Numbered from the stretch's first letter, positions 11,955 through 26,012 are shown. The stretch: 64,000 nucleotides of DNA from Alphaproteobacteria bacterium (GCA_046882065.1 JBKSMY010000006.1:5800-69799); one strand, 5' to 3'. Program-made: numbers and translations. Notes: generated from the sequence alone by a model not told the origin.

Positions 11955-11980
11955 AAACCGGGTTTCCCCGGTTTTTTTAT
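11955..11980. terminator. bidirectional terminator (aaaaccgggtttccccggttttttt)
   Basis: Hairpin between convergent genes ending at 11954 and 11977. Confidence 0.55.
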
Positions 11981-12477
11981 ATGGCGGATTGACCATAAAC
12001 AATCCAATACATATTATGTGAACCAGTTAAATAGGCCTGGATTACCAATGTGGTTGTTGTGCTGCTGTCTGATTTGACGACACCACTGTATGCGCCGGCG
12101 TTGCCTTCGCGACCCACCCATGAAAACCCGCACCAGTATTGATTATTCGCCATTTGTACTGGTAATGAAATGCTGCGTGTTTCACTTGTTAGTTCGTCCA
12201 ACTTTAATCGTCCGCCCATTTCAACCCAGCCACTTTTATATTTCCGGTACCAGGTGTAGTTATTGTCTGCCGTTGGCGTTTGCCAGGCGATGACATAATC
12301 GTATGGGGTCAAATCTGGAATTTCGCTTTGTTTCGCAAGTGTCGTGCCACCGGGTGTTTGCCCGTCGTGGACACGCAAAGTGTTTGCAGTTGTGTCAACC
12401 GTGATTTCACCGGGTGCGCCGGTAAATGTTTCATGTTCGGCCGACGTGCCGCGTCTGAATTGTATCTGTCGTGACAT
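11977..12477 (-). CDS. phage tail-fibre-like protein (conserved tail-fibre N-terminal domain), short
   Basis: MSRQIQFRRGTSAEHETFTGAPGEITVDTTANTLRVHDGQTPGG matches the widespread caudoviral tail-fibre/Mtd-N type N-terminal motif (QxRRGT..GE..D..T..L.VxDG.T.GG). Confidence 0.5.
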   Translation of the reverse strand: MSRQIQFRRGTSAEHETFTGAPGEITVDTTANTLRVHDGQTPGGTTLAKQSEIPDLTPYDYVIAWQTPTADNNYTWYRKYKSGWVEMGGRLKLDELTSETRSISLPVQMANNQYWCGFSWVGREGNAGAYSGVVKSDSSTTTTLVIQAYLTGSHNMYWIVYGQSAI

Positions 12478-12517
12478 TTTTATTCCTTTTTGAGTTTTTT
12501 TTTATACTGGTTAATGT

Positions 12518-12814
12518 ATGAAAAAAATTTTAATTATTTTTTATTGTTTTTTTACACCATTCTTGGCAATGGCTGTATTGCCAGTTGTAAAAACGAATAT
12601 CGAAATTCCGTATAGAATCGCTGTTGATTCCAGCGCAATTTCCAGCATCGGCTTCAAAGACAATGTTTTGGAAATCGAATTTAATTCTGGAAATACATAT
12701 CAATATAATGGTGTTGCCAAGGATACTTTTGAATTTTTTTTAAATTCTGAATCCAAAGGACAGTTTTTTAATCGTTATATCAAAGGTAACTATGATGTTA
12801 TTCGCATTAAATAG
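12518..12814 (+). CDS. KTSC-domain protein with signal peptide
   Basis: The signal peptide is MKKILIIFYCFFTPFLAMA. The KTSC-like core is SSAISSIGFKDNVLEIEFNSGNTYQYNGV..F..FLNSESKGQFFNRYIKG. Confidence 0.5.
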   Translation: MKKILIIFYCFFTPFLAMAVLPVVKTNIEIPYRIAVDSSAISSIGFKDNVLEIEFNSGNTYQYNGVAKDTFEFFLNSESKGQFFNRYIKGNYDVIRIK

Positions 12815-13278
12815 TTCCAATTTTTCATAACATACGTTCTGATGCCATAACCAGGATTATATTTTGGGTATAATTTTTGAAAATCTGCGCTGGCACAATA
12901 TATATCGTCTGATGATATCGCGCCAATTTGCGCCAGATACACCATCGCAATCGACGGAGAACGTGACACACCACAATCACAATGAATTAAAACAGGCATC
13001 GTTTCAATATGTGCAATAATAAACTTAATCGCAGCATCAAATATCGGATTGGTATAAGCCGGGTTAAATTCACATGGCATATCAACCAAATTTAAATATA
13101 GATTTTTTCCATGTTTATAGACTAAATAATCTGGATTGTCGCTACACAGACTGCCTTGGTACCCTAAAACGCGGCGATGACATGTTTTACACGCATGAAT
13201 TATTGCGATATTATCGTGACGATATGACATGCAATCATGCATATCACCGACATACAGGTTATTGTATACTTGTATCAT
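12790..13278 (-). CDS. dual-specificity / Cys-based protein phosphatase (CX5R active site)
   Basis: VLIHCDCGVSRSPSIAMVYL contains the HCxxGxxRS P-loop of DSP/PTP phosphatases. Its 3' end overlaps the convergent KTSC gene by 25 bp. Confidence 0.6.
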   Translation of the reverse strand: MIQVYNNLYVGDMHDCMSYRHDNIAIIHACKTCHRRVLGYQGSLCSDNPDYLVYKHGKNLYLNLVDMPCEFNPAYTNPIFDAAIKFIIAHIETMPVLIHCDCGVSRSPSIAMVYLAQIGAISSDDIYCASADFQKLYPKYNPGYGIRTYVMKNWNYLMRITS

Positions 13279-13288
13279 ATTACATCCA

Positions 13289-13525
13289 TTATTTTATAAC
13301 AGCCCCCTTAATCAGGGTCAGGTCTTCTTTGATATCGTCAATTTTAATCTGAATTTGACCAATGCCCGTTTCCAAAATCGTCGTGCGATTTTCAAGTGAT
13401 GTTATCCGGGTATCAAATGTTTCGTGTTCCGCAACAGATAAGTCTTGGCGGGCAGCCCAATAGACCAACCCACCAATGAACATTATCAAAAACCAACTGT
13501 TGCGCAGAAAGTCCAATGACATCAT
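13289..13525 (-). CDS. small membrane-anchored coiled-coil protein (phage accessory; spanin/holin-like?)
   Basis: N-terminal TM segment (WFLIMFIGGLVYWAA) followed by a helical repeat-like C-terminus. Confidence 0.3.
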   Translation of the reverse strand: MMSLDFLRNSWFLIMFIGGLVYWAARQDLSVAEHETFDTRITSLENRTTILETGIGQIQIKIDDIKEDLTLIKGAVIK

Positions 13526-13725
13526 GATTTGTCCCCCCTGCCCCGCACGATTTGTGATTCTATTTGGCGCACTAAGGCGCGTTGGGATTCAGCCCAGCGC
13601 AATTCCCCGTCCGATGCGTTCGCCCCTAGTGTGCGTTCAATCGTAATCTTGCGCAAATGATCCAAGACCGCACGACCGGACGGTGTGCCAAAACAACGCG
13701 CGTAGTTTAATGATATATCCGTCAT
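13522..13725 (-). CDS. hypothetical phage protein (67 aa)
   Basis: ORF translationally coupled (overlapping stop/start) with flanking phage genes. Confidence 0.3.
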   Translation of the reverse strand: MTDISLNYARCFGTPSGRAVLDHLRKITIERTLGANASDGELRWAESQRALVRQIESQIVRGRGDKS

Positions 13726-14957
13726 AGTTGCCCCCCAAGAACTGTTTCCAATGCCGTCATCTGGGCAATCGGCGCAATGTATTTTAGTTCTGCGTCCCCG
13801 TTCAGACGAATTGGTTCAATCAGCCCACGACGCGCCAATATCTGTAATCCACGGTCGCACAAGGGGCGTATAAATTCATGTAGCAAACGTCCATAGGTTG
13901 CGCCCAAAATACGCATCATATCGGCATTGCGCGCCATAATTTCTGTGGCGGTCATTTCTTTTTCAGACAACAACCCCAGTCGGTCCGCCAACAACGCATG
14001 ACGGATACGTTCGCGCAAATCGCGCAATATCAGTTGCGATACATCAAAGTTCGCACCACTGGTCAATGGGGTCAGACCAGATGAACCAACAGCCTTGGGT
14101 ATAATTGCGCCAGGGGTCAAGTTTATGTTCTGCAGATTGATTACGCCGTCGTCGTCCGCCATCCATATACCAGACACAGCAATTGTTGCATTTTTCAAGA
14201 CCAGTTCAACAACCTTGTTCGCGGTTTTAATGTCTGGCAATGCACGCAGGACCGGACCACGACCGTACAATTCACCAGATGATACCGCCCAGCGGAATAT
14301 AATGTATGGATTCGTTTCAAATGTACCCGTGGAAACAATGTTGTTTTCAATATCACCACCAACGTCCAGCCACGCAACAAAATCCGTTCCAACCAGGCTT
14401 TGTACCAATTTTAACGGGGTTTCAGGGTCGCGCTTTATCGTATCGCGCAGGTTTGCCGGCGGTGTCCATGTTGGGTATTTTTCCAGGACTTCGCGTGCAG
14501 ACATAGATGTTGTGTGGAATACTGCGTTTGGCAATATCGCAATATCTGTCATTGGAATGGCTGTAAATGTAAATGCAGATGATGCACCAATCGGCGATTC
14601 TGACATGAACAAACACGCCGTCCCCAGCACCACTAAGTCCATATAACACTGGTGGATTGTCGTATAAAAATTCGAGTCATTCAAATTCGCACGCAGGACA
14701 GTCGTCGCATAGTCTGCGTTCTGGGACAAATCACTTTCGCCCACCAATTGCAACCACATTGATTCCGGCGGTGTCAACAACGTGTAAATCGATGCCGCCA
14801 GATTGTCTGATGCGTCCATGGCGGTGGCGTCAAACAATGTTGCCGCATCGTCGTCGGCCGTCGGCATGGCATAGCGACGCGCCGCGTCCCAACGCGCAAC
14901 CCAAGGCGCACGCGTATCCAATGCACGTTTATAAAGGTTCTGTAAATTTTGATACAT
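13722..14957 (-). CDS. putative portal protein
   Basis: 411-aa ORF immediately downstream of the terminase-C fragment, which is the canonical TerL-portal order. The size fits; no motif-level proof. Confidence 0.35.
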   Translation of the reverse strand: MYQNLQNLYKRALDTRAPWVARWDAARRYAMPTADDDAATLFDATAMDASDNLAASIYTLLTPPESMWLQLVGESDLSQNADYATTVLRANLNDSNFYTTIHQCYMDLVVLGTACLFMSESPIGASSAFTFTAIPMTDIAILPNAVFHTTSMSAREVLEKYPTWTPPANLRDTIKRDPETPLKLVQSLVGTDFVAWLDVGGDIENNIVSTGTFETNPYIIFRWAVSSGELYGRGPVLRALPDIKTANKVVELVLKNATIAVSGIWMADDDGVINLQNINLTPGAIIPKAVGSSGLTPLTSGANFDVSQLILRDLRERIRHALLADRLGLLSEKEMTATEIMARNADMMRILGATYGRLLHEFIRPLCDRGLQILARRGLIEPIRLNGDAELKYIAPIAQMTALETVLGGQL

Positions 14958-14974
14958 TTTGTTTCCTTTTGGTT

Positions 14975-15859
14975 TTATATCTTGAAATTTGTGTTGGCAG
15001 AAAAGGTTTTTATCGATGTGCCAATTGCACGCACGGGCGTTGGAGTGTCCGTTATCGCGCCCGCGACCGCGTCCAGGCCGTCATCGTGAATGCCGGTTGC
15101 CCCAATCGGAGACCAGCCTAACATTTCCGACAACAGCGGCGTGTTTTGAACACGCGTGTGTGCGTGCAGGCGACCCGTTGATAGCAACGGTTCAATAGCA
15201 TTCAAAATTCGGTCTGATTTTGGTTTATTGTTCTGGATTTTATTTACATATATGTTTGCACCTTGCTTGATTGCACAATCGCGCATAATTTCAGGCAACC
15301 CAACCCCCAGGCCATTTGTTTCGATTGTTATGCGACGCAGTCCACGCGCAGACATAAATTCCAACACCATATCGCATTGGCGCGACAATGGGAACAGTTC
15401 ATCATCAGATACGGTCAGGTATAAAATATCGTGGATAAACACACGGCGCGAATTATCATCACGATACAGCAATACACAGGTACTGCCGTCGCGATGACGA
15501 CGGCCAGTCGCCGGATCCCAATATAATGTCATGCCTGTGATATGAAATTCATCAATCCGTGCAAAACGTGGGTCAAATTCAGTTTCATAAAATTTTAGTC
15601 CCCCCGGGTCCAGGCGGGCGCGTTCAAGCGGTGTGCATTCCAACATCATCTGGGACGAGAAGTGGCGCATACCAACTGTTTCGCGCAATTGTTCTATTCT
15701 TGAAAGCGGGAATAATTCGGGCCACGCGGGCGTCCCATCTGCGTTAACTATCGGAATTTTCAGCAATTTATACCCATGTAAAAAAGGCGTTGAAAAAGCA
15801 TTTTTTTCATATACTATGGGCATAGAAGAAAAGGAATTTGACATGGATTTTACCCCCAA
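14975..15859 (-). pseudogene. terminase large subunit, C-terminal nuclease-domain fragment
   Basis: LYWDPATG .. FIHDI .. IHDDGLDAVAGA are the RNaseH-like TerL nuclease motifs. There is no ATPase domain. The ORF opens with TTG and has no RBS. Its first ATG (CAT 15842-15844) overlaps the divergent dnaB ATG (15843). Confidence 0.6.
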
Positions 15860-17408
15860 AACATTACCAACAAATCTGGAAGCAGAACAGGCAGTATTGG
15901 CTGCGGTACTGATGAATAATCGTGCGTTGGAACGTGTGGGCGAATTCCTGAATTACAAGCATTTTTCACATCCTGCACACCAGGAAATTTATAAACTGGC
16001 CGAAAAGCAATTTGCCGCAGGTATTCCATTCGATATTATTACCGCAAAAAATTATCTGGACCAACAGGGCGTTCTGGAATCTGTTGGTGGCGTGGACTAT
16101 TTAAGCCAATTAACCAGCGCCGGCGCGACCGTCGTTAATGTTGAACAATATGGACGCATCGTTTATGAACATGCGTTGCGTCGTGATTTAATCGCCCTGG
16201 CCCAGGATATTACAGACAAGGCTTTTGTCGAAGATTTAGACAATCCGGTCGCGCGCCAGATTGAAATCGCAGAACAAAAGTTGTTCGATATGGCAACAAC
16301 AGGGACGTCTGAACGCGAACTGACTTCTATTTCAAGCGCGTTGCAAAGCGCCCTGGCTGAGGCAGAAATCGCATACAAAGCCGATGGTCAGTTATCCGGT
16401 CTGACGACGGGATTGAACGCATTGGATAAATCAATTAGTGGGCTGCATCATTCAGATCTGATTATTATCGCAGGACGTCCCGCGATGGGGAAAACCACAC
16501 TGGCAATGAATATCGCGTTCAATGCCGCCCAGGCAATTGCATTTGGTCGCGCAAACCAAAATTACAAGGGCGCAGTTGTGTTTTTCAGCCTTGAAATGTC
16601 GGCGTCCCAGTTGGCGGCGCGTGTGCTGTCATCGCAATCCAAGATTCCTGCAACCGCCATGCGTGAAGGAACACTGACGGATGAAGACTTTCTGAAAATG
16701 TCACAATATTCAGCCGCCATCGGACAGGTGCCGTTATTCATTGATGACACCCCGGGTATGAGTGTGCCAATGATGCGTACGCGTGCACGGCGTCTGGCGC
16801 GTAAACACGGTGGAATCGCGTTGATTGTTATCGACTATCTGCAGTTGATGACATCCCCCGGTGGCAAGCATAGTGACAATCGTGTTCAGGAAATTTCTGA
16901 AATTACACGAGGGCTGAAAATGCTGGCCAAGGAATTAGATGTCCCAGTTATCGCCCTGTCCCAGTTGTCGCGTAGCGTGGAATCGCGCGATGACAAACGA
17001 CCAATGCTGTCCGATTTGCGTGAATCTGGTTCTATTGAACAGGACGCGGACATTGTTATGTTCACATACCGCGAAGAATACTATTTGCAAAATCGTGACC
17101 CGTCTGACCGCATATCGAATAATGTTAATGATAAAATGCATGAATCATGGCAGAGCAGAATGGAACGCGCACGCGGCAAAGCAGATATTATCATCGGCAA
17201 AAACCGTCATGGTCGCCCTGAAACTGTACGCACAGCGTTCTTTGGCGATTACAGTCTGTTCGACAACCTGGACGAATTTGAGGCGCGTGGTGAAAATGAT
17301 TTTGCACAACCTGCACCAACAATTACAGCAGCACAACTGGCAAATGATGTGGATTCTATGCCGACTGCGATTGATCCAGACGCAATTCCAGACGACATGC
17401 CGTTGTAA
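15843..17408 (+). CDS. dnaB: DnaB-family replicative DNA helicase
   Basis: N-terminus LPTNLEAEQAVLAAVLMNN. Walker A is GRPAMGKTTLAMNIAFNAA. Walker B/H4 are IDYLQLM and SQLSRSVE. There is an unusual ~45-aa acidic C-terminal tail. The upstream in-frame extension from 15633 is judged non-coding. Confidence 0.8.
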   Translation: MDFTPKTLPTNLEAEQAVLAAVLMNNRALERVGEFLNYKHFSHPAHQEIYKLAEKQFAAGIPFDIITAKNYLDQQGVLESVGGVDYLSQLTSAGATVVNVEQYGRIVYEHALRRDLIALAQDITDKAFVEDLDNPVARQIEIAEQKLFDMATTGTSERELTSISSALQSALAEAEIAYKADGQLSGLTTGLNALDKSISGLHHSDLIIIAGRPAMGKTTLAMNIAFNAAQAIAFGRANQNYKGAVVFFSLEMSASQLAARVLSSQSKIPATAMREGTLTDEDFLKMSQYSAAIGQVPLFIDDTPGMSVPMMRTRARRLARKHGGIALIVIDYLQLMTSPGGKHSDNRVQEISEITRGLKMLAKELDVPVIALSQLSRSVESRDDKRPMLSDLRESGSIEQDADIVMFTYREEYYLQNRDPSDRISNNVNDKMHESWQSRMERARGKADIIIGKNRHGRPETVRTAFFGDYSLFDNLDEFEARGENDFAQPAPTITAAQLANDVDSMPTAIDPDAIPDDMPL

Positions 17409-17485: not shown

Positions 17486-18493
17486 ATGGCCCAAGAAGAA
17501 ATTATATTTCCAAATAATATCCGCAACATTCGTTTGGCTAACGGTATGAAGATGACCGAACTGGCGCGTCGCGCAGGTTTATCTTTGTCTGCTGTTTCCA
17601 AGATTGAAAAAGGTGTTCGCCGACTGAACCAAAAACAGTTGTTGAATATTTGTAATATCCTGGGCTGTAAACTGTCCGATATTTTCATCAAAGAATCCGA
17701 TGATGTCGCAGACCAATGGCAAAGCGAAATCAAACGCCGTATGTCAGACAATGAAAACAGCGGTCTGAAAGTGTTCGGCAGCGGTCTGCGCAAGATTCGC
17801 CAGCAACGCGGAAAAACAATCGCACAGGCAGCAAAAGACGCCGGCATGACATTGTCTGTTTATCATAAAATCGAAGTCGGACAACGTGAAATCTATCAAA
17901 ATGAAATCGAACCATTGGCGCGTTCTTTTGCATTGGGTGCCGAAGAATTGTTCGATAAAATCGCAAGCCTGTATAAATCTGGCGAGTTGAACAAGCACAT
18001 CAGCAAAGTTAAAGAACGTGTAAAATCCGTTCTGATACCGGGCAATCCAATATCTGGTATGGACATGCACGGCGGTTTGTATGGCGCAAAATTGTATGAC
18101 AGCGCACGCAAAAAACTGGTTCCTGTGTTCGGCACACCCGCTGGCAAAGGAATCTCATTTAAAAAATCTGACAAAACAATGATTGTCGCCCCAATGACAT
18201 TAGAAGGACGCGCCGGCATCTATGCCGTTGCACCAAATTCTAAACGTTTGGGTGGTTTTGTGCCTGAAAATTCATATGTGTTTGCGGATTCCATGACCCC
18301 AGCACAGCCAGGCGATTTAGCAGTCGCAATTGATGTGGACTTTGACACATTGGATGGCGATACAACTGTTAATGCACAAATCGTTAGTGTGCGTCAGGAT
18401 TCCAAAGGCAGAGTTTATGGTCAGATGTCTTCACCAGATGAAAAATTGACAGCACAAACTATGCACAAGGTCGTTATGATTGTTATGGAATAA
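17486..18493 (+). CDS. CI/LexA-like repressor: two XRE-type HTH domains plus C-terminal S24-peptidase-like domain
   Basis: Two HTH_XRE-like segments (TELARRAGLSLSAVSKIEKG; IAQAAKDAGMTLSVYHKIEVG). C-terminal FADSMTPAQPGDLAVAIDVD resembles the GDSM..PGDLVVVD autocleavage module. Start moved to the ATG 7 nt after aggag. Confidence 0.6.
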   Translation: MAQEEIIFPNNIRNIRLANGMKMTELARRAGLSLSAVSKIEKGVRRLNQKQLLNICNILGCKLSDIFIKESDDVADQWQSEIKRRMSDNENSGLKVFGSGLRKIRQQRGKTIAQAAKDAGMTLSVYHKIEVGQREIYQNEIEPLARSFALGAEELFDKIASLYKSGELNKHISKVKERVKSVLIPGNPISGMDMHGGLYGAKLYDSARKKLVPVFGTPAGKGISFKKSDKTMIVAPMTLEGRAGIYAVAPNSKRLGGFVPENSYVFADSMTPAQPGDLAVAIDVDFDTLDGDTTVNAQIVSVRQDSKGRVYGQMSSPDEKLTAQTMHKVVMIVME

Positions 18494-18519: not shown

Positions 18520-19161
18520 ATGAACGTCAAAACCAGCGCAATCGCATTGAAATTATTAAACCTGTACCGCCAAGAACATGTTATTATTGGTGGCTGGACG
18601 ACTGTTAATCCGATTTTTTTAGCCGAGGCAACTGATGAAGTAATTAAAGAGTTGCGCACAATCCCCACAGGTAAATTATTGGTGCAACATATTGAAAATC
18701 TGCGCAGCGGCAAGACAGCCATGGACACCATAGATTCAGAATTGCTGCCATATGGCGGAATGATGACCGCAGAAGACATAGCAACAATTAAACTGACACC
18801 ATATCAATGGCGCGAACTGGAAGAAGGATTACGCAACTTTACACCAGATCAGGCAGGACTGGACAAATTTATGTCAATGGATGTTGTGCGCGAATTTGGC
18901 GAAGAATGGCAGAATTCTATTCGTTCCACTTTGAACGCACGACCACAATTGTTGGACAAATGGCGCACTGTTAAGCAAACCTATAATGCGTACAGACTGT
19001 GGGATATGGCGAATGAAATTATAGCCGCTCCGATATCCGAACGTAATCGCGCCCAGGTACAGGCCGATATGCCGGAATATGAAACATATTTACCTATGTT
19101 TGGCGACGCAGGTGCAGAATTGTTGACTAAATTACGCACATTTATCAGCAATATTGATTAA
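18520..19161 (+). CDS. hypothetical protein (213 aa)
   Basis: ORF with RBS; its stop overlaps the stop of the terminase-N fragment (convergent). Confidence 0.4.
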   Translation: MNVKTSAIALKLLNLYRQEHVIIGGWTTVNPIFLAEATDEVIKELRTIPTGKLLVQHIENLRSGKTAMDTIDSELLPYGGMMTAEDIATIKLTPYQWRELEEGLRNFTPDQAGLDKFMSMDVVREFGEEWQNSIRSTLNARPQLLDKWRTVKQTYNAYRLWDMANEIIAAPISERNRAQVQADMPEYETYLPMFGDAGAELLTKLRTFISNID

Positions 19162-19793
19162 TTGTTGCGGTATATTGTGTCGTGCGTATGTGGCGTTCCG
19201 ATGTAAATCATTGCCCCATTCGGCGAAAGGATAAAATCTAATTCGCGCAGTCTTTCACGCATTTGTTCCCGTTTCTGCGGGGTGTTTGATGTGTTGGGAA
19301 CTTCGACATCGTCACAAATAATTAGGTCTGCGCGCAATCCTGTAATGTTGCCATGCAAGCCTTGGCAGATGACGGAAGGTTCGCGGATGCCAATTGGTCG
19401 ATTAACCGTTATGCGTGCTGATGCCCATTCTTTTTTATTTTGCGGCACCAAATGGGCGCACCACGGATGATTTTCTAGTATATGCCGAATGTGTGATACC
19501 ATACGCGACGACAGCCCGGATTCCGCAGATAATATCAGTATTCTTGTTTGTGGACGCAGATACAATACACAGGCAACAAAAACACCAACAACTGTTGATT
19601 TGCCAGAATGTCGAAACGCCATCAACAGCCCACGATGTGGCGCATCACACAAAACATCATATAAAAATTCCATAATTTTGCGATGATGCGTTGGCGTCTG
19701 CAACCCCAAGACCCGATTCCATTCATCTAAGAAACTATAAAATTCCGTAATCATCGCGGTTTTCATTCGGGGCAGGTTCTGAAATAAAGCCAT
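19158..19793 (-). pseudogene. terminase large subunit, N-terminal ATPase-domain fragment
   Basis: Walker A is AFRHSGKST and Walker B is LIICDDVE, with a downstream GTP coupling-like motif. It ends after 211 aa with no nuclease domain. Confidence 0.65.
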
Positions 19794-20286
19794 AATCGTT
19801 TATCAATTTAGGCAATGCATTTTCCAGCACCCCAACCAAATTACGATACACCCCCAATACTGCGCCACCGCCCAGTTTATCGCGAATAACGTCATGCGTG
19901 TAATTTATCAACGATTTAACATCATTGTGGATGTTCGCCCATTCAACCAAGTCTGTGTTCACAGAATGTAAATCTTGAAATGCAGACAACAGAAAGTTAA
20001 AATCTGTGTTCAAATCTTCTGGGTCTATTCTGCGAGTTGGTTGATAGTCAATGGTGCGCGATAATGATATTTGTCGAAAAATGTCCAGTTTTGTATCCGC
20101 AGGTGGCGCAACATCAAAAACAACGTTGCCACCAGAAAAATCTTCGTTTGGTAGAACGGCATAATTAAATGCGCCATCCCCTATAACATCATTTATGGCA
20201 ACGCGCACATCTGCGGTCTGAAAAAAAGGAAACACAAACGCAAATTCCGTTGTCAGGCCGTCTGCAATATAAGATATTTTATACAT
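19735..20286 (-). CDS. phage structural/accessory protein, hypothetical (183 aa)
   Basis: ORF in the co-directional phage gene string. Confidence 0.35.
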   Translation of the reverse strand: MYKISYIADGLTTEFAFVFPFFQTADVRVAINDVIGDGAFNYAVLPNEDFSGGNVVFDVAPPADTKLDIFRQISLSRTIDYQPTRRIDPEDLNTDFNFLLSAFQDLHSVNTDLVEWANIHNDVKSLINYTHDVIRDKLGGGAVLGVYRNLVGVLENALPKLINDYGFISEPAPNENRDDYGIL

Positions 20287-20306: not shown

Positions 20307-20654
20307 TTAGCCAACCAGGTCATCAAATCTGGACAGCAAAGATTTCAATAAATTTGGTTTCTTGGCGCGTGCATTTTTTAACTTGGTCATATTATTGCGA
20401 CGCTTTTCTTCGTATGGTGCAGACGTTTCCGATTTCAGGCGTTTCAAAACTGCGCCTTCGGTCACGCCGTTTGTGCGCATGCCAGACGCACCATATTTTG
20501 CGCGCTGGGCCGCCAACGCTTTTTTCACCAGGTTTGTTTTTTCTGCTTCGTCCGCAGCCATCTGTGCGATTATTTCTTGGCGTTGATTTTTTGCCGCCTT
20601 TTTAGCGTCTTTGTAATCCAAGATTTCCGTTATATCTGATACAACTTGTCCCAT
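20307..20654 (-). CDS. basic helical phage protein (115 aa); small-terminase or internal protein candidate
   Basis: Lys/Arg-rich composition; position just upstream of TerL. Confidence 0.3.
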   Translation of the reverse strand: MGQVVSDITEILDYKDAKKAAKNQRQEIIAQMAADEAEKTNLVKKALAAQRAKYGASGMRTNGVTEGAVLKRLKSETSAPYEEKRRNNMTKLKNARAKKPNLLKSLLSRFDDLVG

Positions 20655-20681: not shown

Positions 20682-22412
20682 TTAAACCGAGTACCAACCG
20701 TGCAAACTGACAGAAAGTACTGTTGTTGGATAATTTTCGTTGCCGTGCACCGTCCATGCGGGCGTCATACAATCTGTTGTTGTGCCTAATAGATTTATTG
20801 AAACGTCGCCGCTGAATCCAGGACTGGTCGCGGCATATATTTCATTTGGCAAACTAATCTGGAGATTGTTTATTGATATGGATTTAGTATCCAGAACACG
20901 CGCTGTAATCTTGCGCAGGCGCAGACGTGTCGCGTTATGCCCAGATGCGCGTAATGGCATGCCAGATGCCTGAAAAGAAAAACTGTATTTATCTGCATCC
21001 ATCATTGCACCTGCATCAAATCGTTCAAGATAAAACCCATCTTCGCGATGCGTCGCAACATATGTGCGTCCGTCACAGACAGCAACCGATATAAACTGGC
21101 CGCGTGTTTTATATTGCCCCCAGGCAGAAATCCCCAGCGCTGCATTCTGATTTAATACAGCCATCGTGCCGTCAGCCAGTACAACAAACAGCCGACGCGC
21201 TGTATCATTATATGCGATATCTATCGGATTGGTCAGCAGATGCTTGGACAATGCGCATAGGTCATTTGCATTGTAATTTTCACCTAACTCGTCCAATGCT
21301 AATTCGCGAATATCACGACCAGACGCAGATACGAATATGGTCGCACCTTCGATTTTCTGGGGCGGTAAATAACGCACAACATACGAACCAACCGATGTAT
21401 GTTGTTTAATGTCAACAACAGATGGAGTTAGCGGTTTACTGGAAATCGCCCATTCACCAACATTGGTTAAGATTTGTAAAGTATCGCTGCTGACGACGGT
21501 ACAAATCTGTTGACGCTGGGCCGATAACAGAGATATAAATATGGCTTCGTCATCCAGACCCGTGCCAGCATCAAAGTTATTGTGTTGCCCCACGCGTGAC
21601 AACCATATTCCAGCCGGCCATGAACGCGATCCACCGAACACCAAGCGATCCTGGTGAAAGGTGATGCTGCGTGGCCAACCACGACGCGCACCAAACGCAC
21701 ATTCATGCCAATCTGATATGGCGGAATCAGGCAAAGTATAGGTGCCATTTGTGTGTACGACAACCTGGGTTGGACTGATATATTCTATGATTTGCCATTG
21801 GCGATTTAACAAGCGCAAACGACCGCCAACATTTTCAGGTGTCCAAAAATCTGCATTCGTGGTAAATGTTGCATAATTGTTGCCTGATGAATGGGCGCTG
21901 ACCGTTATTTTTATATTAGACGCATCGTCAAATTTTACAAACGGCATATTGACCGTCATATCTGCGTCGTTGCGCGAAAATTCGAATTCACGCAAATAAA
22001 ACCTATTGCCAGATTTGTATAATGTTTGTGGCTGATAATCAGCATGCACAAATATCATTGTGCCAAAACGCTGGGCATACTGTAAATGCGATGCGTCGTT
22101 GTATGACCAAGGTGTTTTTAGCGACTGGTAAAGTGTGTCGCCCAGATATATATCAATGTAAAAATCTGTTATTGCCAACAGATATTCTTCGTCATCAGAA
22201 ACAGAAAAAGGTATTAGGCGTGCTGGGCCTTTGAGTGCGCTGATACTGCGTAAACCTGAACGACGCGACAGGCCACCGCCCGCCAGGACATCCATGTTTT
22301 CCAATCGGGACAGACCGTCTATATTATCGTGCGCATAGAATTCTGGGGCAACCGCACCATTTGCAAATGAATTTTGTGTTTTGATAAAATCTGCCATGCG
22401 AAAATCCCCCAT
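20682..22412 (-). CDS. tail tubular protein B-like (T7 gp12-like), putative
   Basis: 576 aa directly after the gp11-like gene. Local resemblance to T7 gp12 (LAGGGLSRRSG vs LKGGISQQP; FGGSRSW vs FASPRSSF). Recollection-based. Confidence 0.4.
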   Translation of the reverse strand: MGDFRMADFIKTQNSFANGAVAPEFYAHDNIDGLSRLENMDVLAGGGLSRRSGLRSISALKGPARLIPFSVSDDEEYLLAITDFYIDIYLGDTLYQSLKTPWSYNDASHLQYAQRFGTMIFVHADYQPQTLYKSGNRFYLREFEFSRNDADMTVNMPFVKFDDASNIKITVSAHSSGNNYATFTTNADFWTPENVGGRLRLLNRQWQIIEYISPTQVVVHTNGTYTLPDSAISDWHECAFGARRGWPRSITFHQDRLVFGGSRSWPAGIWLSRVGQHNNFDAGTGLDDEAIFISLLSAQRQQICTVVSSDTLQILTNVGEWAISSKPLTPSVVDIKQHTSVGSYVVRYLPPQKIEGATIFVSASGRDIRELALDELGENYNANDLCALSKHLLTNPIDIAYNDTARRLFVVLADGTMAVLNQNAALGISAWGQYKTRGQFISVAVCDGRTYVATHREDGFYLERFDAGAMMDADKYSFSFQASGMPLRASGHNATRLRLRKITARVLDTKSISINNLQISLPNEIYAATSPGFSGDVSINLLGTTTDCMTPAWTVHGNENYPTTVLSVSLHGWYSV

Positions 22413-22931
22413 TTAAAAGCGCGTGTTAACTAATGAAAAATCCGATATACCGTCGATTGTGGCGGTTGTACTGTCTATAAATTTCGCGGTCTGTAATTCT
22501 GTTTCGTATAATGCCGCCAACATACGAAATACTGTTTGATCCCCCATTAAGGGAATACAAAATTCCATCGCCAGTCGCGTTGCCGCCAAGGAAACAAAAT
22601 ATCCTGGGTATAATTCTGGGGCGGTTTTTACGACTGCGGTTATTGTTGTTGTGTCGCCGTCACATAAAATTCTGTTTCCGTTAATGCGTCCAGATGTTTT
22701 TAAAACACGCAGAACGTTGGCAGGAACTAAAAAATCGCCGTTTGTGTTCTTGGTTAAATCCATGGTCTGGGTCGCAAAACGCCACGGGTGGGCAGATATA
22801 ACAGAATCCATCACAGTATCGAATAATGTGCGTGCAAGTTTTGCAGGGGCGCTGTCGTCGGTAAGAGACTGAATTGGCTGTTCGCCAATCTTTAATAACG
22901 CCATCGAACATAAGTCTATTTTGGTAAGCAT
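22413..22931 (-). CDS. tail tubular protein A-like (T7 gp11 family)
   Basis: From internal Met MLTKIDLCSMALLKIGEQPIQSLTDDSAPAKLARTLFDTVMDSVISAHPWRF. This parallels T7 gp11 ..VNDILASIGEPPVSTLEGD..RRILNKINRQIQSRGWTFN. The size is ~172 aa. RBS aaggtg. Confidence 0.5.
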   Translation of the reverse strand: MLTKIDLCSMALLKIGEQPIQSLTDDSAPAKLARTLFDTVMDSVISAHPWRFATQTMDLTKNTNGDFLVPANVLRVLKTSGRINGNRILCDGDTTTITAVVKTAPELYPGYFVSLAATRLAMEFCIPLMGDQTVFRMLAALYETELQTAKFIDSTTATIDGISDFSLVNTRF

Positions 22932-22960
22932 TTTTGCACCTTTGGTTAATAAAAATTTTA

Positions 22961-22980: not shown

Positions 22981-23007
22981 TGTAAGGGAAAGGAGAAAAA
23001 AAGTTTG

Positions 23008-23241: not shown

Positions 23242-23280
23242 ATGAGTTTTCCTTTTGGTTAAGTTGAATTTTAAATTGTG

Positions 23281-24102
23281 TTATTCGCCATCCGAACATT
23301 TAACGCGAACAATACCATCTGCATCAATCAAGACCGCGCCTTGGGACATGCTGTTGCTGATAAAGTGCGCAGCACGTTCGCCATGCCATGAAATGTCTGT
23401 CTTGACTTCCTGGCCACAGGCATGACCAATGCTGGATGCGTGATAGATAAAGCAATCACGATTTGTTTCCGTGCCCGGCAGACCGTTATACAGAACCCAT
23501 GTAATGCCCAACCATTTACGCGCAACACCACCATTCAACAATGGCAACGCATCGCCAACATAATCAGCAGAAACAAATTCATCCATGGACAGCAGTTCAT
23601 TCCACTGGCGCACACCAACAACCGCAAAGCGACGCCCATCGTCTGGAACATCGTTAGTGTTCAACACCTCAACCGCAGATAAAATTAAATCCTTGGTAAG
23701 ACCCGTCGAATAATCACCAACGTTTGCTGTCGCATTGTTCATGGCAGATACAATCAATTCGTCTGTTTTGCGACCCAAGGCATATGCGCCCGCAGATGCA
23801 ACAACACGACGTTCATCAATATTGACCTTTAATTCATCCAAAGCATCAACCCAATCGCCCGCATAGTAATCAGACAACATACATTCAACAGGTTCATGAT
23901 TCAGATTCATCACAGGCACAATGCCGTGACGTGATTTTGTGCTGGCCGTGCCACGACCAACCTTTTGAAATGTGGTGGATGCACCGATGACACCCGATTT
24001 GCTGCGAACCGTAGAACGCAGTTTTGTGCCCATTTGCTGATACGCCAAATGAACATCGGCTTCGAATTGTTTCACAAACACATTATCGATGGAAACAGAC
24101 AT
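23281..24102 (-). CDS. major capsid protein (T7 gp10-like / HK97-fold), putative
   Basis: 273 aa. C-terminal YHASSIGHACGQ..AAHFIS resembles the T7 gp10 MHRSAVGTVKL..IAKYAMGHGG region. Preceded by a scaffold-like gene and followed by tail tube genes. RBS aaagga. Confidence 0.45.
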   Translation of the reverse strand: MSVSIDNVFVKQFEADVHLAYQQMGTKLRSTVRSKSGVIGASTTFQKVGRGTASTKSRHGIVPVMNLNHEPVECMLSDYYAGDWVDALDELKVNIDERRVVASAGAYALGRKTDELIVSAMNNATANVGDYSTGLTKDLILSAVEVLNTNDVPDDGRRFAVVGVRQWNELLSMDEFVSADYVGDALPLLNGGVARKWLGITWVLYNGLPGTETNRDCFIYHASSIGHACGQEVKTDISWHGERAAHFISNSMSQGAVLIDADGIVRVKCSDGE

Positions 24103-24290
24103 AGAAAAATCCTTTGCTATAAAAAATTAAACACAGGTGCCAATGTACGGCACCGCAAAATATTTTGTATTTTGGTTGTGCATAAAATGCGCCATCAGAC
24201 AAAAAGTTTTAGGGTCCGCAGATGCGGATTGTCCATAAAAAATATCAGTCAGACCTGCGCAAATATCTGACTGATACTTTTATTAAAAAA

Positions 24291-24306
24291 CCCCGCAATC
24301 GCGGGG
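24291..24306 (-). terminator. ccccgcaatcgcgggg hairpin followed (minus strand) by TTTTTTAATAAAAG; strong terminator right after the repeat-protein gene
   Basis: Seen directly. A second hairpin, tcagtcaga..tctgactga, lies at 24246-24275. Confidence 0.5.
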
Positions 24307-24318
24307 TAAATATTTCAA

Positions 24319-24624
24319 TTATTTTTTCTTGCAAACTTTTTTAGCAGGTGCTTTTTTCGCACATACTTTTTTTGCAACTGGTTTTGCAACTACTTTTTTA
24401 GCAGGTGCTTTCTTTGCAACTGGTTTTGCAACTGGTTTTTTAGCAGGTGCTTTCTTTGCAACTGGTTTTGCAGCCGGTTTTTTAGCAGGCGCTTTCTTTG
24501 CAACTGGTTTTGCAGCCGGTTTTTTAGCAGGTGCTTTCTTTGCAACTGGTTTTGCAGCTGGTTTCGCGGCTGGTTTTTCAGCAACTACTTTCTTTGCTGC
24601 TTTTTTCTTAAACAAGAATGCCAT
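24319..24624 (-). CDS. histone-H1-like basic repeat protein (tandem KPAAKPVAKKAPAK 14-aa repeats)
   Basis: The protein is 101 aa and almost entirely Lys/Ala/Pro/Val. It contains about five tandem repeats and ends in a Cys-containing tail, VCAKKAPAKKVCKKK. Confidence 0.6.
   Translation of the reverse strand: MAFLFKKKAAKKVVAEKPAAKPAAKPVAKKAPAKKPAAKPVAKKAPAKKPAAKPVAKKAPAKKPVAKPVAKKAPAKKVVAKPVAKKVCAKKAPAKKVCKKK
24394..24561. repeat. 42-bp tandem DNA repeat x4 (plus partial copy) inside the basic-protein gene
   Basis: Unit ttttttagcaggtgctttctttgcaactggttttgcaRcYgg recurs at 24394, 24436, 24478 and 24520. Confidence 0.85.
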
Positions 24625-24736
24625 TCTTTCTCTCCTTCAATATAAAAAGTTTTGGACAGAACAAACCTGTTTTGTTCTTAATTGCATTTTATCGTAATTA
24701 CAAAACTTAGTAAAGAAGAAAGTGTGTTTTTTCAAA

Positions 24737-25393
24737 TTATGAATATAATTTTTTAAAACCGTTTTCTATTTTTCGAATGTATTCTAGATCACCATCACGC
24801 CAATATTTTGGATCGCGCATCATGCGACGCAAATCAGAATCTGACAAAATTTCATTTTCATTTTTATCTGTTTTAACGTCAGGCTCCATCGATTGCATCA
24901 TCTTGTAAACGCTTTGGATTCCCTGGGGTGTAGCGCACAACGATTCAAATGCGTCCTGCGGCAAAAAGCGTTCGCCAAATGTATTTATCGCACGCAACGC
25001 ATCTAACATTTTTTCATCGCCACCAAAGAAATTTTTCAATTCATTCATCGCAGATACATCATCACGCGTTGCAAATAATTCTGAAATTACTGGTGATAAA
25101 AAATTGTTCGCAATATCATAAATTTTTTCAACTTGTGTTTTAGTCAAACCAATTTCAAGAAATTTTTGTCGCAGATTTTCATCATCATATAATTCATGAA
25201 CAGGATATTCAGATGCATCATCCGGAACACCAATTGCGCGATTAAATTTCTGACGCGCAGCGCTATCTGAATTTTCATTTGGAACAGACACCATCGTGCC
25301 AATCTTTTTTTCTAATTCATTATACGAACGCATCAACGCGTCTGTATTCAATGTTCCGTCATTATTACGAAATTTTTCTGGGATGTTATCCAT
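24737..25393 (-). CDS. acidic helical protein, scaffolding-protein candidate
   Basis: ~218 aa from internal Met MDNIPEKF (RBS aaggaa), rich in D/E and predicted helices, and located upstream of the capsid gene as in T7 gp9. The long upstream extension is judged non-coding. Confidence 0.3.
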   Translation of the reverse strand: MDNIPEKFRNNDGTLNTDALMRSYNELEKKIGTMVSVPNENSDSAARQKFNRAIGVPDDASEYPVHELYDDENLRQKFLEIGLTKTQVEKIYDIANNFLSPVISELFATRDDVSAMNELKNFFGGDEKMLDALRAINTFGERFLPQDAFESLCATPQGIQSVYKMMQSMEPDVKTDKNENEILSDSDLRRMMRDPKYWRDGDLEYIRKIENGFKKLYS

Positions 25394-25583
25394 TGTCTTT
25401 TCCTTTGGTTTCGTTTGAACGGCGCAGAAAATATATTCCCGCCAATGTAAATATTGCCTGCAACATTGTAAATAAATCTGTATCACCCACCAGGTATGCA
25501 CCAACAGCCGACAAGATACCCGTCGCAGAAATTATGTATGTTCGGTACCCAGACAGGTAGCCACCATGTATTATTCGTTTCAT
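25386..25583 (-). CDS. holin-like small membrane protein
   Basis: 65 aa with two hydrophobic segments and a charged C-terminus, immediately downstream of the lysin gene. Confidence 0.35.
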   Translation of the reverse strand: MKRIIHGGYLSGYRTYIISATGILSAVGAYLVGDTDLFTMLQAIFTLAGIYFLRRSNETKGKDNG

Positions 25584-25595
25584 AGAAATCGCCCA

Positions 25596-26012
25596 TCATA
25601 AATAGAACAATATGCCATCTATGTCTGCAATATATCCGCGCGATGTAGCCCATGCAGGGATTTCATCTGCATAATGAAATTTTGTTGCACCATAACAACT
25701 GTCAGGTAATTGCCCCATCAACATTCGATAGGCCGTACGAACACACATTTGAAACGCACGATTTTGAGCCGGCACATGCAAACGCACATGATTTACATCT
25801 GAATCCGATAATGCCGGAAATATAGTTTTATCACAAATCAAATTAGATATCGTAACACCTGATGCGTCTGATAAATTTTTTATCATTGATGTAAACGCAC
25901 ATACCAATGGCAATGAGACACCACCTGTTTGCGCATAAACAACGCGTGCAATTTTATATGCCATGTTTGTAGTACCAGACGTGTCTGGATTTTTTATCAA
26001 TGTCAGTTGCAT
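25596..26012 (-). CDS. cell-wall hydrolase, SleB-like (Hydrolase_2) phage endolysin
   Basis: IARVVYAQTGGVSLP resembles the SleB/Hydrolase_2 motif (ARVVYAEAxGE); the size is ~138 aa. Confidence 0.55.
   Translation of the reverse strand: MQLTLIKNPDTSGTTNMAYKIARVVYAQTGGVSLPLVCAFTSMIKNLSDASGVTISNLICDKTIFPALSDSDVNHVRLHVPAQNRAFQMCVRTAYRMLMGQLPDSCYGATKFHYADEIPAWATSRGYIADIDGILFYL

What the first reader, a model, noticed from the sequence alone, without database searches (positions are those of the whole stretch)
11977..26012. Compact podovirus-like structural and lysis module without integrase or replication genes: candidate domesticated phage-like particle
Minus-strand genes run from a SleB-like lysin and holin (25.4-26.0 kb) to a tail-fibre N-domain protein (11977-12477). 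In order they are a scaffold-like acidic protein, a T7 gp10-like capsid, a gp11-like tail tubular A, a gp12-like tail tubular B, two small proteins, TerL (split), a putative portal, two small proteins and the tail fibre. No integrase, excisionase, small terminase with clear signature, or primase is visible. The left flank is tRNA-Leu and the right flank is birA. The element is ~14 kb, far smaller than a T7-like genome (~40 kb). The interrupted terminase argues it cannot package autonomously. Possibilities are a decaying prophage or a host-maintained particle, either GTA-like or a killer particle.
Basis: partly seen in the sequence, partly recalled or inferred. Interest (0 to 1): 0.6.

Follow-up and report, generated by a model that had tools for sequence, protein, structure and literature searches.

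The report
Domesticated podovirus cluster with split terminase
Uncultured gut Alphaproteobacteria carry, at one fixed chromosomal site, a selection-maintained set of podovirus head, tail, packaging and lysis genes whose DNA-packaging enzyme is permanently split in two around the cell's own replication helicase gene, which points to a new gene-transfer-agent-like particle and a natural two-piece terminase.

Summary
The structural calls hold. Profile searches confirm scaffold, major capsid protein, tail tubular A and B, portal, Bbp19, an Mtd_N fibre and both halves of a T7-type large terminase (TerL).

It holds a cellular alphaproteobacterial-type dnaB, a double-HTH regulator and an unknown 213-aa protein.

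This is not decay. The whole arrangement, including birA on one side and dnaB inside TerL, recurs in about 70 independent contigs from uncultured gut, rumen and termite Alphaproteobacteria. TerL nuclease-half identity falls as low as 51%.

Every gene is under purifying selection (dN/dS 0.02-0.35, with dS 0.5 to saturated). Capsid and portal are as constrained as DnaB. All ATPase and nuclease motifs are invariant, and divergence tracks the flanking birA.

The split lies in the interdomain linker. It also occurs in sister elements with 4-nt, 270-nt or 490-nt gaps.

A conserved promoter followed by two covarying terminators precedes the first gene. The dnaB promoter sits inside the first codons of the TerL nuclease-half gene (terL-C).

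Best reading: an independently domesticated podovirus-derived particle system, GTA-like or PBSX-like, with a two-polypeptide terminase. Particles and DNA transfer are untested.

The parts
26042..26146 (-). Conserved sigma-70-type promoter (-35 TTGACT at 26146-26141, extended -10 TATTAT at 26123-26118). It is followed by a ~30-nt leader and two tandem intrinsic terminators (26090-26073 and 26062-26042), all upstream of the first gene.
   Evidence: the promoter is invariant in 8 loci; both hairpins are recovered by RNAalifold, and 10 of 15 pairs show compensatory changes.
25596..26012 (-). lys138: diverged Hydrolase_2 (SleB/CwlJ-type) lysin homologue. The conserved GEARGE motif is altered to AQTGGV.
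   Evidence: PHROG endolysin, E 5e-4; intermediate homologues hit PF07486; dN/dS 0.2-0.35.
25386..25583 (-). sm65: 65-aa protein with two hydrophobic helices and a charged C-terminus; holin-like.
   Evidence: One search gives the translation. It is conserved in relatives, with dN/dS 0.05-0.3. No family hit; the assignment rests on composition and position.
24737..25393 (-). Scaffolding protein (T7 capsid assembly family).
   Evidence: PF05396, E 8e-8; phrog_3742. Gene calls of 218 aa in relatives.
24319..24624 (-). AKP: lysine/alanine/proline tandem-repeat polycation resembling histone H1/HC2. Repeat number varies between relatives (101-165 aa).
   Evidence: weak HC2 / H1-like matches; orthologue translations; 42-nt tandem repeats.
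24103..24318 (-). Structured, conserved leader of the capsid gene. It contains a terminator (24307-24290), a conserved palindrome ATCAGTCAGA/TCTGACTGAT (24275-24266 / 24253-24244) followed by a U-tract, three further hairpins and the ribosome binding site.
   Evidence: alignment of 13 loci with symmetric compensatory changes; fold z-score -5.3; the palindrome is unique in the window.
23281..24102 (-). Major capsid protein (Phage_capsid_2, HK97 fold).
   Evidence: PF19821, E 6e-72; dN/dS 0.02-0.11; 45% identity to Pelagibacter phage Hodr.
23008..23241 (-). p77: small conserved head-module protein (phrog_18004). A hairpin at 22981-22960 follows it.
22413..22931 (-). Tail tubular protein A (adaptor, gp11-like).
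   Evidence: PF17212; phrog_394, E 8e-31.
20682..22412 (-). Tail tubular protein B (nozzle, gp12-like).
   Evidence: phrog_376, E 3e-82.
20307..20654 (-). p115: charged small protein in the position of the T7 internal proteins.
   Evidence: weak internal head/virion protein matches. It is conserved in all relatives.
19735..20286 (-). p183: protein resembling a tail-fibre N-terminal (tail-attachment) domain. It is absent from some relatives.
   Evidence: phrog_1640, E 2e-10, N-terminal 84 residues; patchy presence.
19158..19793 (-). TerL-N: ATPase domain of the large terminase as a separate polypeptide. It ends at GTPHTHDTIYRNN*.
   Evidence: phrog_38 positions 268-459. Walker A, Walker B and GTP motifs invariant in 63 distinct sequences; dN/dS 0.02-0.08.
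18520..19161 (+). u213: conserved all-helical protein of unknown function, confined to this clade. Its stop overlaps the TerL-N stop by 4 nt.
   Evidence: no family, sequence or fold match; dN/dS 0.08-0.19.
17486..18493 (+). XRE-family regulator with two HTH domains and a C-terminal domain of about 140 aa with unknown fold.
   Evidence: HTH_3, two stretches; no LexA/S24 similarity; dN/dS 0.05-0.11.
15843..17408 (+). dnaB: cellular, alphaproteobacterial-type replicative DNA helicase.
   Evidence: NF006606 scores 614 bits against a cutoff of 540, and the protein falls below the phage_DnaB cutoff; 44-50% identity to chromosomal DnaB of other Alphaproteobacteria; no dnaB follows rplI in the window.
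15790..15817 (+). dnaB promoter (TTGAAA-N16/17-TAtACt) embedded in codons 2-12 of terL-C.
   Evidence: conserved in 13 loci; the same-codon fraction is 0.90-0.94 in terL-C codons 1-17, against a gene mean of 0.46.
14975..15844 (-). TerL-C: nuclease (RNase H-like) domain of the large terminase as a separate polypeptide. Its start codon is at 15823, or at 15844 where it overlaps the dnaB ATG as CATG.
   Evidence: PF22530; phrog_38 positions 475-708; more than 120 stand-alone clusters of about 280 aa. WDP, ExNG and DDGxDA motifs invariant in 70 sequences; dN/dS 0.08-0.13.
13722..14957 (-). Portal protein (head-to-tail connector).
   Evidence: PF12236, E 1.6e-82; dN/dS 0.03-0.08.
13522..13725 (-). 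Bbp19-like small phage protein.
   Evidence: PF25181, E 4e-12.
13289..13525 (-). p78: small protein with an N-terminal membrane helix and a coiled coil (weak XhlA-like match). Possible lysis accessory protein.
   Evidence: weak matches; dN/dS 0.02-0.09.
12518..13278 (.). Variable cargo slot. In this window it holds a DSPc-type phosphatase (12790-13278, minus strand) and a signal-peptide KTSC protein (12518-12814, plus strand).
   Evidence: The contents differ in relatives.
11953..12477 (-). Mtd_N tail-fibre/receptor-binding protein (11977-12477) and its terminator (11976-11953). This is the left end of the element.
   Evidence: PF18454, E 3e-16; terminator; 51-64% identity in relatives, the most variable structural gene.

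Best explanation
This is a phage-derived particle gene cluster that has become a resident, vertically inherited part of the chromosome in a clade of uncultured gut-associated Alphaproteobacteria. It is an independent domestication of an HTVC023P/BPP-1-like, T7-architecture podovirus. It most likely makes small tailed particles that package cellular DNA, in the manner of a GTA.

Shown:
- The locus encodes a complete head, portal, tail tube, fibre and packaging set, plus a holin-like and a lysin-like gene.
- It lacks an integrase, a phage replication module, the large internal core proteins, and the small ORF that overlaps the TerL start in its intact-TerL relatives.
- The locus, its order and its birA neighbour are conserved, and all genes are under purifying selection.
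- TerL is encoded as two polypeptides, cut in the variable interdomain linker, with every catalytic motif intact.
- A cellular dnaB, a 2xHTH regulator and an unknown gene sit on the opposite strand between the halves.
- The dnaB promoter lies inside the first terL-C codons.
- The cluster begins with a conserved promoter that runs into two conserved terminators.

Inferred:
- Most transcripts stop at the two leader terminators. A regulator (candidates: the HTH protein and u213) allows read-through, as in the lambda PR'-tR' late operon or the GafYZ system of the Caulobacter GTA.
- Terminator-resistant RNA polymerase then transcribes lysin through TerL-N and continues antisense across u213-HTH-dnaB. 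No conserved promoter for terL-C was found, and its start codon is 0-19 nt from that of dnaB. This expresses TerL-C, portal and fibre, and opposes dnaB and regulator expression.
- TerL-N and TerL-C associate non-covalently on the portal and fill heads without sequence specificity.
- The cell lyses and releases the particles.
For: Gene identities.

Conservation: the same cluster is found in GTDB species representatives L011-L019 (full-length where the contig allows; L015 and L018 deviate), in the MAG/metagenome loci L005-L010 and in 59 IMG/VR contigs.

Selection: dN/dS is 0.02-0.35 for all genes, with dS 0.5 to saturated. Capsid (0.02-0.11) and portal (0.03-0.08) are comparable to DnaB (0.03-0.06).

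Vertical descent: protein distances of element genes correlate with the flanking birA, r 0.76-0.89.

Terminase: the concatenated TerL halves align collinearly to intact T7-like TerL, residues 18-478. The split falls in the variable linker. Motifs are invariant.

Sister elements carry the same split with 4-nt, 270-nt and 490-nt gaps. The nearest intact-TerL relatives have the canonical T7 gene order.

dnaB is of the cellular type and is missing from its usual rplI-adjacent site. No second dnaB locus from the nine species genomes appeared in the genome scan.

Regulation: promoter plus double terminator with covariation. Embedded dnaB promoter with synonymous-site constraint, and no comparable constrained window in dnaB.

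The TerS-position ORF of the relatives is absent here.

L018 shows that decay does occur when selection lapses, while dnaB is kept.
Against: No particle, packaged DNA or transfer has been observed, and every host is uncultured.

The lysin homologue has lost the family signature, and the window copy has Q in place of the conserved Glu of GEARGE. Lysis-based release is therefore uncertain.

No ejection or internal core proteins are present, so DNA delivery may be impaired or may need recipient uptake functions.

No antiterminator homologue was identified. u213 has no detectable relatives of known function.

The two hairpins could simply terminate birA transcription.

Antisense read-through across dnaB is inferred only from the absence of a detectable conserved promoter.

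That dnaB is the only helicase gene could not be verified on whole genomes.

Capsid size, and therefore whether the particle can hold its own 14-kb locus, is unknown.
Confidence: 0.6

Rival explanations
1. PBSX-like defective-prophage killer particle. The cluster is host-maintained and makes DNA-containing particles. Their selected role would be to kill or compete with related strains through the fibre, not to transfer genes.
For: The evidence of domestication is the same as for the main explanation. An Xre-type regulator lies inside the cluster. The fibre gene is the most variable structural gene and sits beside variable surface-polysaccharide genes. There are no ejection proteins.
Against: Nothing in the sequence separates killing from transfer. 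Podovirus-type killer particles are not a known class (my knowledge). A full packaging machine under strong selection is not needed merely to kill.
Confidence: 0.15
2. Functional temperate phage, or a satellite that depends on a helper. On this view the 14-kb cluster is the structural half of a mobile element whose other genes lie elsewhere or are supplied in trans.
For: IMG/VR classifies about 59 such contigs as viral. Related elements with an intact TerL and the canonical order exist.
Against: The chromosomal neighbour (birA) is the same across genomes in which birA itself is only 59-85% identical. There is no integrase, no att repeats and no phage replication genes. A cellular dnaB is embedded in the cluster. 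Flanks on both sides are host genes.
Confidence: 0.05
3. Inert prophage remnant kept only because it is physically interlocked with the essential dnaB gene and its promoter (hitch-hiking).
For: The dnaB promoter lies inside terL-C. In L018, TerL-C, dnaB, HTH and u213 survive while the capsid and portal genes are deleted.
Against: Hitch-hiking cannot hold dN/dS at 0.02-0.1 in capsid, portal and tail genes several kb from dnaB once dS is saturated. It cannot keep all terminase motifs invariant either. L018 shows that the distal genes can be deleted without losing dnaB. Their retention elsewhere therefore reflects selection on them.
Confidence: 0.04
4. The two TerL halves are rejoined into one protein or one mRNA, by an intein, an intron, or DNA excision of the dnaB cassette. 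On this view the terminase is not really two-piece.
For: Terminase genes are frequent hosts of inteins and introns (my knowledge). Sister elements have short non-coding gaps at the same site.
Against: The combined length, 211 + 282 aa, equals that of intact homologues, which leaves no room for intein halves. There is no non-coding sequence at either junction in the window. Rfam finds no intron in the 490-nt gap of L093 or in the window. The cassette has no flanking repeats and no recombinase. Excision would also remove dnaB.
Confidence: 0.05

Closest known systems
RcGTA-type gene transfer agents (Rhodobacter capsulatus, Caulobacter; Rhodogtaviriformidae)
   Same: Both are phage-derived head, tail and packaging clusters fixed in alphaproteobacterial chromosomes. 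Both are vertically inherited, under purifying selection, lack an integrase and a replication module, and have lysis genes. [quoted passage not shown]
   Different: RcGTA is siphovirus-like and has a tape measure and different portal, capsid and terminase families. The cluster here is a T7-architecture podovirus set (PF12236 portal, tail tubular A/B, PF19821 capsid). No RcGTA-type families were hit. Here TerL is split and a cellular dnaB is embedded.
BaGTA (Bartonella gene transfer agent)
   Same: Both are domesticated clusters of about 14 kb at a fixed site in Alphaproteobacteria and are conserved across a host radiation.
   Different: The gene table in PMC3610622 lists a 1863-nt portal, an intact 1344-nt TerL and an 1119-nt 'phage related protein' gene. 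Here the portal gene is 1236 nt, the capsid gene is 822 nt and TerL is split. BaGTA is linked to a run-off replication origin, which was not seen here.
FpGTA of Faecalibacterium (PMC12946183)
   Same: Both are candidate GTAs of gut bacteria with a compact ~10-kb operon and podovirus-like morphology.
   Different: The hosts belong to different phyla. FpGTA has an adjacent TerS candidate and an intact TerL. Homology between the two was not tested. That paper calls FpGTA the first podovirus-like GTA and the first GTA-like element found in the human gut, and does not describe this alphaproteobacterial element.
PBSX-type defective prophages of Bacillus
   Same: Both are chromosomally fixed defective phages with an Xre-type regulator. 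PBSX makes particles that package host DNA and are released by lysis.
   Different: PBSX is myovirus-like and belongs to Firmicutes, with an intact terminase and a killing function. No homology was tested.
HTVC023P/Hodr-type pelagiphages and intact-TerL proviral contigs (L154-L175, MT838907)
   Same: They share homologous capsid (45-63%), portal, scaffold, p77, tail tubular A/B, fibre N-domain and Hydrolase_2 lysin.
   Different: These relatives have the canonical order portal-scaffold-capsid-tube-...-fibre-TerL-lysin, an intact TerL, a small ORF overlapping the TerL start, and (in Hodr) large internal proteins in a 34-kb genome.
Lambdoid late operon (PR', tR', Q antiterminator)
   Same: In both, a promoter is followed closely by terminator(s) upstream of lysis genes and then morphogenesis genes in one long operon.
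   Different: No Q homologue or Q-binding element was identified. There are two tandem terminators. The operon would also have to cross 3.3 kb of antisense genes.

Membership tests
Gene transfer agent / viriform | Structural genes resident at a fixed chromosomal locus, inherited vertically with the host | tested here: met
   The birA neighbour and the gene order are the same in all loci that reach that far. Distances correlate with birA, r 0.76-0.89.
Gene transfer agent / viriform | Purifying selection on the phage-derived genes | tested here: met
   dN/dS 0.02-0.35 for every gene against 10 relatives.
Gene transfer agent / viriform | No integrase, excision, lysogeny or phage replication module | tested here: met
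   Pfam/PHROG scans of all cluster ORFs and of 10 flanking ORFs found none. The only replication gene is a cellular-type dnaB.
Gene transfer agent / viriform | Particles are produced and released | not testable with these tools
   This needs culture, metaproteomics or EM.
Gene transfer agent / viriform | Particles carry random host DNA, too little to encode the element | not testable with these tools
   This needs VLP sequencing. The only indirect hint is that the TerS-position ORF of relatives is absent.
Gene transfer agent / viriform | DNA is delivered to recipient cells | not testable with these tools
   No ejection or core protein genes were found. Transfer is untested.
T7-architecture podovirus structural module | PF12236 portal, tail tubular A and B, T7-type scaffold, T7-type TerL | tested here: met
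T7-architecture podovirus structural module | Internal core proteins (gp14-16 equivalents), with no T7 gp10-family capsid match expected to be missing | tested here: not met
   The capsid matches PF19821, and no T7 gp10 family was hit. No large internal proteins lie between tail tubular B and TerL, only a 115-aa protein.
BaGTA | BaGTA gene set (about 620-aa portal, intact 447-aa TerL, linked ROR origin) | tested here: not met
   Gene sizes and layout from PMC3610622 do not match. Direct sequence comparison was not done.
RcGTA-like cluster | Siphovirus head-tail cluster with RcGTA-type portal, protease, capsid and tape measure | tested here: not met
   Only podovirus-type families were hit. No tape measure or prohead protease is present.
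Hydrolase_2 (SleB/CwlJ) lysins | Match to PF07486, including the conserved GEARGE Glu | tested here: inconclusive
   The window protein does not reach any Pfam threshold. Homology is visible only through intermediates. The motif reads AQTGGV.
Q-type antitermination late operon | Promoter-proximal terminator upstream of late genes | tested here: met
   A conserved promoter is followed by two covarying terminators.
Q-type antitermination late operon | A Q-family antiterminator protein | tested here: inconclusive
   No Pfam, NCBIfam, PDB sequence or fold match was found for u213 or any other ORF.
Intein- or intron-interrupted terminase genes | Extra intein domains, or a structured intron RNA at the break | tested here: not met
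   The lengths of the halves sum to that of an intact TerL. The window has no spare sequence at the junctions. Rfam found no intron.

The most novel reading that the evidence does not exclude
The large terminase works as two separate subunits: an ATPase polypeptide and a nuclease polypeptide. This state has been fixed for a long evolutionary time.

In this clade the gap has been colonised by the cell's only replicative helicase gene and two regulators. The arrangement would create an interlocked switch. Antiterminated late transcription must run antisense through dnaB and its promoter to reach terL-C and the portal gene. Committing to particle production would then simultaneously shut down replication-helicase and regulator expression.
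Probability: 0.2. Interest if true: 0.9.

Novelty: new variant of a known kind. Interest (0 to 1): 0.78.

Why it matters
Four consequences would follow if this reading is true.

1. It would add an independent, podovirus-derived lineage to the few known gene-transfer-agent-like systems. The hosts are uncultured Alphaproteobacteria of human and animal guts, where capsid-mediated DNA exchange is only beginning to be mapped.

2. A terminase whose ATPase and nuclease domains are separate proteins, conserved over deep divergence and in several gene arrangements, is a natural experiment. It bears on packaging-motor models that rely on movement between covalently linked domains.

3. An essential replication gene nested head-to-head inside a packaging gene, with its promoter inside the other gene's codons, is an unusual example of host and ex-viral functions becoming genetically interlocked.

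4. IMG/VR lists dozens of these loci as viruses. Recognising them as host elements would correct virome and host-prediction analyses.

Tried and rejected
- HTH C-terminal domain: tested against LexA as an S24 autoprotease by hhalign, with no similarity.
- Intron in the 490-nt TerL gap of L093, or in the window: no Rfam match.
- Intein: excluded by lengths.
- att-like or cassette-flanking repeats: none.
- A conserved antisense promoter for terL-C inside dnaB or HTH: no strong synonymous-constraint window in dnaB. A weak one in HTH codons 75-92 showed no promoter-like motif.
- P0001, an apparently longer TerL-C, is an internal duplication and not a fusion.
- GenBank phage records hold nothing similar at the DNA level apart from the conserved DnaB core.
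- BaGTA and RcGTA membership: rejected.
- Literature searches for a split terminase in GTAs, or for a podovirus-type alphaproteobacterial GTA, found nothing relevant.

Full report
**What is in the window**

ORF listing and profile searches confirm a podovirus structural and packaging set on the minus strand between 26.0 and 12.0 kb. In order it contains:
- a lysin-like gene (25596-26012);
- a two-helix holin-like gene (25386-25583);
- a T7-type scaffold (PF05396);
- a lysine/alanine/proline repeat protein (24319-24624);
- the major capsid protein (PF19821, E 6e-72);
- a 77-aa protein;
- tail tubular A and B;
- a 115-aa charged protein;
- a 183-aa fibre N-domain protein;
- the ATPase half of a T7-type TerL (19158-19793; phrog_38 positions 268-459);
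- the nuclease half of the same TerL (14975-15823; phrog_38 positions 475-708);
- the portal (PF12236, 2e-82), Bbp19 and a 78-aa membrane protein;
- a DSPc phosphatase and a KTSC protein;
- an Mtd_N fibre (11977-12477), closed by a terminator.

These are dnaB (15843-17408), a regulator with two HTH domains (17486-18493) and an unknown 213-aa gene (18520-19161). The junctions are tight. The u213 stop overlaps the TerL-N stop by 4 nt. The dnaB ATG is 19 nt from the terL-C start, or overlaps an alternative terL-C start as CATG.

birA is the right neighbour. Surface-polysaccharide genes lie to the left. tRNA-Leu is 5 kb away. No integrase is present.

**The arrangement is conserved, not decaying**

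A search with the joined TerL halves returned more than 120 clusters of stand-alone proteins of about 280 aa. These are 61-100% identical to the nuclease half and come from uncultured Alphaproteobacteria.

Contig look-ups and a scan of GTDB species genomes with DnaB recovered the same layout in MAGs from human, ruminant and deer guts. That layout is birA, lysin ... TerL-N, [u213, HTH, dnaB on the other strand], TerL-C, portal, Bbp19, p78. Two further loci deviate. The termite-gut locus L015 shows only TerL-C about 2.2 kb from dnaB. L018 is rearranged, as described below. Another 59 copies are filed in IMG/VR as viral contigs of about 10-12 kb, with TerL-C identity down to 51%.

Pairwise dN/dS against ten relatives is 0.02-0.35 for every gene, with dS from 0.5 to saturation:

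| Gene | dN/dS |
|---|---|
| Capsid | 0.02-0.11 |
| Portal | 0.03-0.08 |
| TerL-N | 0.02-0.08 |
| TerL-C | 0.08-0.13 |
| DnaB | 0.03-0.06 |

Protein distances of element genes correlate with those of the flanking birA (r 0.76-0.89, 15 genome pairs), as expected for vertical descent.

One relative, L018, shows real decay. A capsid fragment is fused to the last 28 residues of TerL-N, the portal is deleted and dnaB is inverted. Yet dnaB, HTH, u213 and TerL-C are still intact. The distal genes can therefore be lost, and their retention elsewhere reflects selection.

**The split terminase**

The joined halves align in one collinear piece (residues 18-478) to intact TerL of T7-like phages. An alignment with full-length relatives places the cut in the length-variable linker, between GTPH..TIY and ..FL.GY..LKIP.

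Walker A, Walker B and the GTP coupling motif are invariant in 63 distinct TerL-N sequences. The WDP, ExNG and DDGxDA nuclease motifs are invariant in 70 TerL-C sequences.

An exhaustive search of 1.8 billion representatives shows at least 14 further 50%-identity clusters of stand-alone nuclease halves, at 36-45% identity. Full-length TerLs appear at 32-39% identity.

Three of these were looked up. The halves are separated by 4 nt in L177, about 270 nt in L172 and about 490 nt in L093, on the same strand and without dnaB. L093 and L172 have capsids 77% and 69% identical to the window's. Relatives with an intact TerL are at 52-62% and keep the canonical order portal, Bbp19, scaffold, capsid, tube, fibre, TerL, lysin. 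This suggests the split is older than the dnaB insertion (inference).

An intein is excluded by length. An intron is excluded by the lack of spare sequence and by Rfam. No repeats or recombinase suggest excision.

**dnaB is the cell's helicase**

The protein passes the NCBIfam equivalog NF006606 (614 bits against a 540 cutoff), which I take to be the alphaproteobacterial-type DnaB model. It falls below the phage_DnaB cutoff.

It is 44-50% identical to DnaB of other Alphaproteobacteria. Many of those sit in an rpsF-rplI-dnaB context. In the window, rplI (47808-48404) is not followed by dnaB. None of the nine species genomes that carry the element gave a second dnaB locus among the best 80 of the scan.

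**Regulatory anatomy**

*Leader of the cluster.* The birA-lysin spacer holds an invariant TTGACT-17-TATTAT promoter. After about 30 nt come two intrinsic terminators whose stems covary (10 of 15 pairs compensatory). This is the layout of a lambdoid late operon. It implies that expression needs terminator read-through, which is an inference. No antiterminator homologue was found. u213 is all-helical with no fold or sequence match, and the HTH protein's C-terminal domain is not LexA-like.

*dnaB promoter.* The promoter (TTGAAA-N16/17-TAtACt) lies within terL-C codons 2-12. Those codons show a same-codon fraction of 0.90-0.94 against a gene mean of 0.46.

*No terL-C promoter found.* No comparably constrained window exists in dnaB, so no conserved terL-C promoter was detected. 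The simplest reading is that terL-C, the portal gene and the fibre gene are reached by read-through antisense across the dnaB operon. This too is an inference.

*Capsid leader.* The 216-nt capsid leader carries a terminator, a conserved palindrome with symmetric compensatory changes and three more hairpins (z -5.3).

**What is missing**

Four things were not found:
- large internal or ejection proteins;
- a counterpart of the 92-124-aa ORF (phrog_31793) that overlaps the TerL start in intact relatives, a TerS-like position whose function is unproven;
- a phage replication or lysogeny module;
- an intact lysin signature: relatives hit Hydrolase_2 at 1e-21, the window copy hits nothing, and GEARGE reads AQTGGV.

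**Comparison with known systems**

The element behaves like a GTA or viriform in every feature that sequence can test. It is not RcGTA-like, since none of the siphovirus families are present. It is not BaGTA, whose gene sizes and intact TerL differ.

A 2026 paper calls Faecalibacterium FpGTA the first podovirus-like GTA and the first in the human gut, and does not mention this element. Literature searches found no report of a split terminase in a GTA, or of this cluster.

**Verdict**

The domestication reading is well supported, and the decay reading is not. The particle function (GTA versus killer particle), the two-subunit terminase activity and the antitermination and antisense model remain inferences with clear tests.

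Noticed in passing
window 24319-24624 (-): This gene encodes an (AKPVAKKAPAKKV)n polycation of 101 aa ending in CKKK, between scaffold and capsid. Relatives carry 125-165-aa versions with different repeat numbers. It gives weak histone H1/HC2-like matches. It may be a DNA-condensing or head-internal protein.
   Followed up: partly
L005 10846-13129; L109 and L126 between TerL-C and portal: The junction between terL-C and the portal gene is a recurrent insertion site. L005 has five extra small genes there, including a SocA_Panacea-domain protein. L109 and L126 have 2-3 kb of extra DNA.
   Followed up: no
window 12518-13278: The variable slot before the fibre gene holds a DSPc-type dual-specificity phosphatase and, on the other strand, a signal-peptide KTSC-domain protein. 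Relatives carry other genes or nothing there.
   Followed up: no
window 7250-11954 (+): The left flank holds glycosyltransferase, pyruvyl-transferase and deacetylase/radical-SAM genes. It differs in every relative, yet a polysaccharide gene set always lies beside the variable Mtd_N fibre gene. This may be a receptor-and-fibre pairing.
   Followed up: no
L018 600-5700: This is a decayed, rearranged copy of the element. Capsid residues 1-85 are fused to the last 28 residues of TerL-N, the portal is deleted and dnaB is inverted. dnaB, HTH, u213 and TerL-C remain intact.
   Followed up: partly
L008-L014 around the dnaB start (for example L008 9981-10001): In the more distant relatives the dnaB ATG lies only 7 nt from the terL-C ATG and about 10 nt from the -10 box. 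This suggests a leaderless or near-leaderless dnaB mRNA. The window group has a 12-nt insertion that supplies a Shine-Dalgarno sequence.
   Followed up: no
L093 8677-9198; L094 1091-1561: In sister elements with short-gap split TerL, the nuclease half is followed by a type IV pilin-like (Bundlin-like) gene rather than a portal gene. In L172 it is followed directly by a host ABC-F gene. The portal genes must lie elsewhere in those genomes.
   Followed up: no
L154-L175 (IMG/VR): All intact-TerL relatives recovered lie on contigs of only 9-16 kb that hold structural genes. It was not determined whether these are fragments of phages or further compact domesticated clusters.
   Followed up: no
window about 12000: GC skew and the predominant coding strand both change sign near the left end of the element. 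This could be local gene-orientation bias or a nearby replication landmark.
   Followed up: no
window 15843-17408, C-terminus: DnaB carries an acidic C-terminal tail of about 45 aa (521 aa in total). This tail falls outside the aligned region in DnaB of other Alphaproteobacteria, where matches end near residue 478.
   Followed up: no
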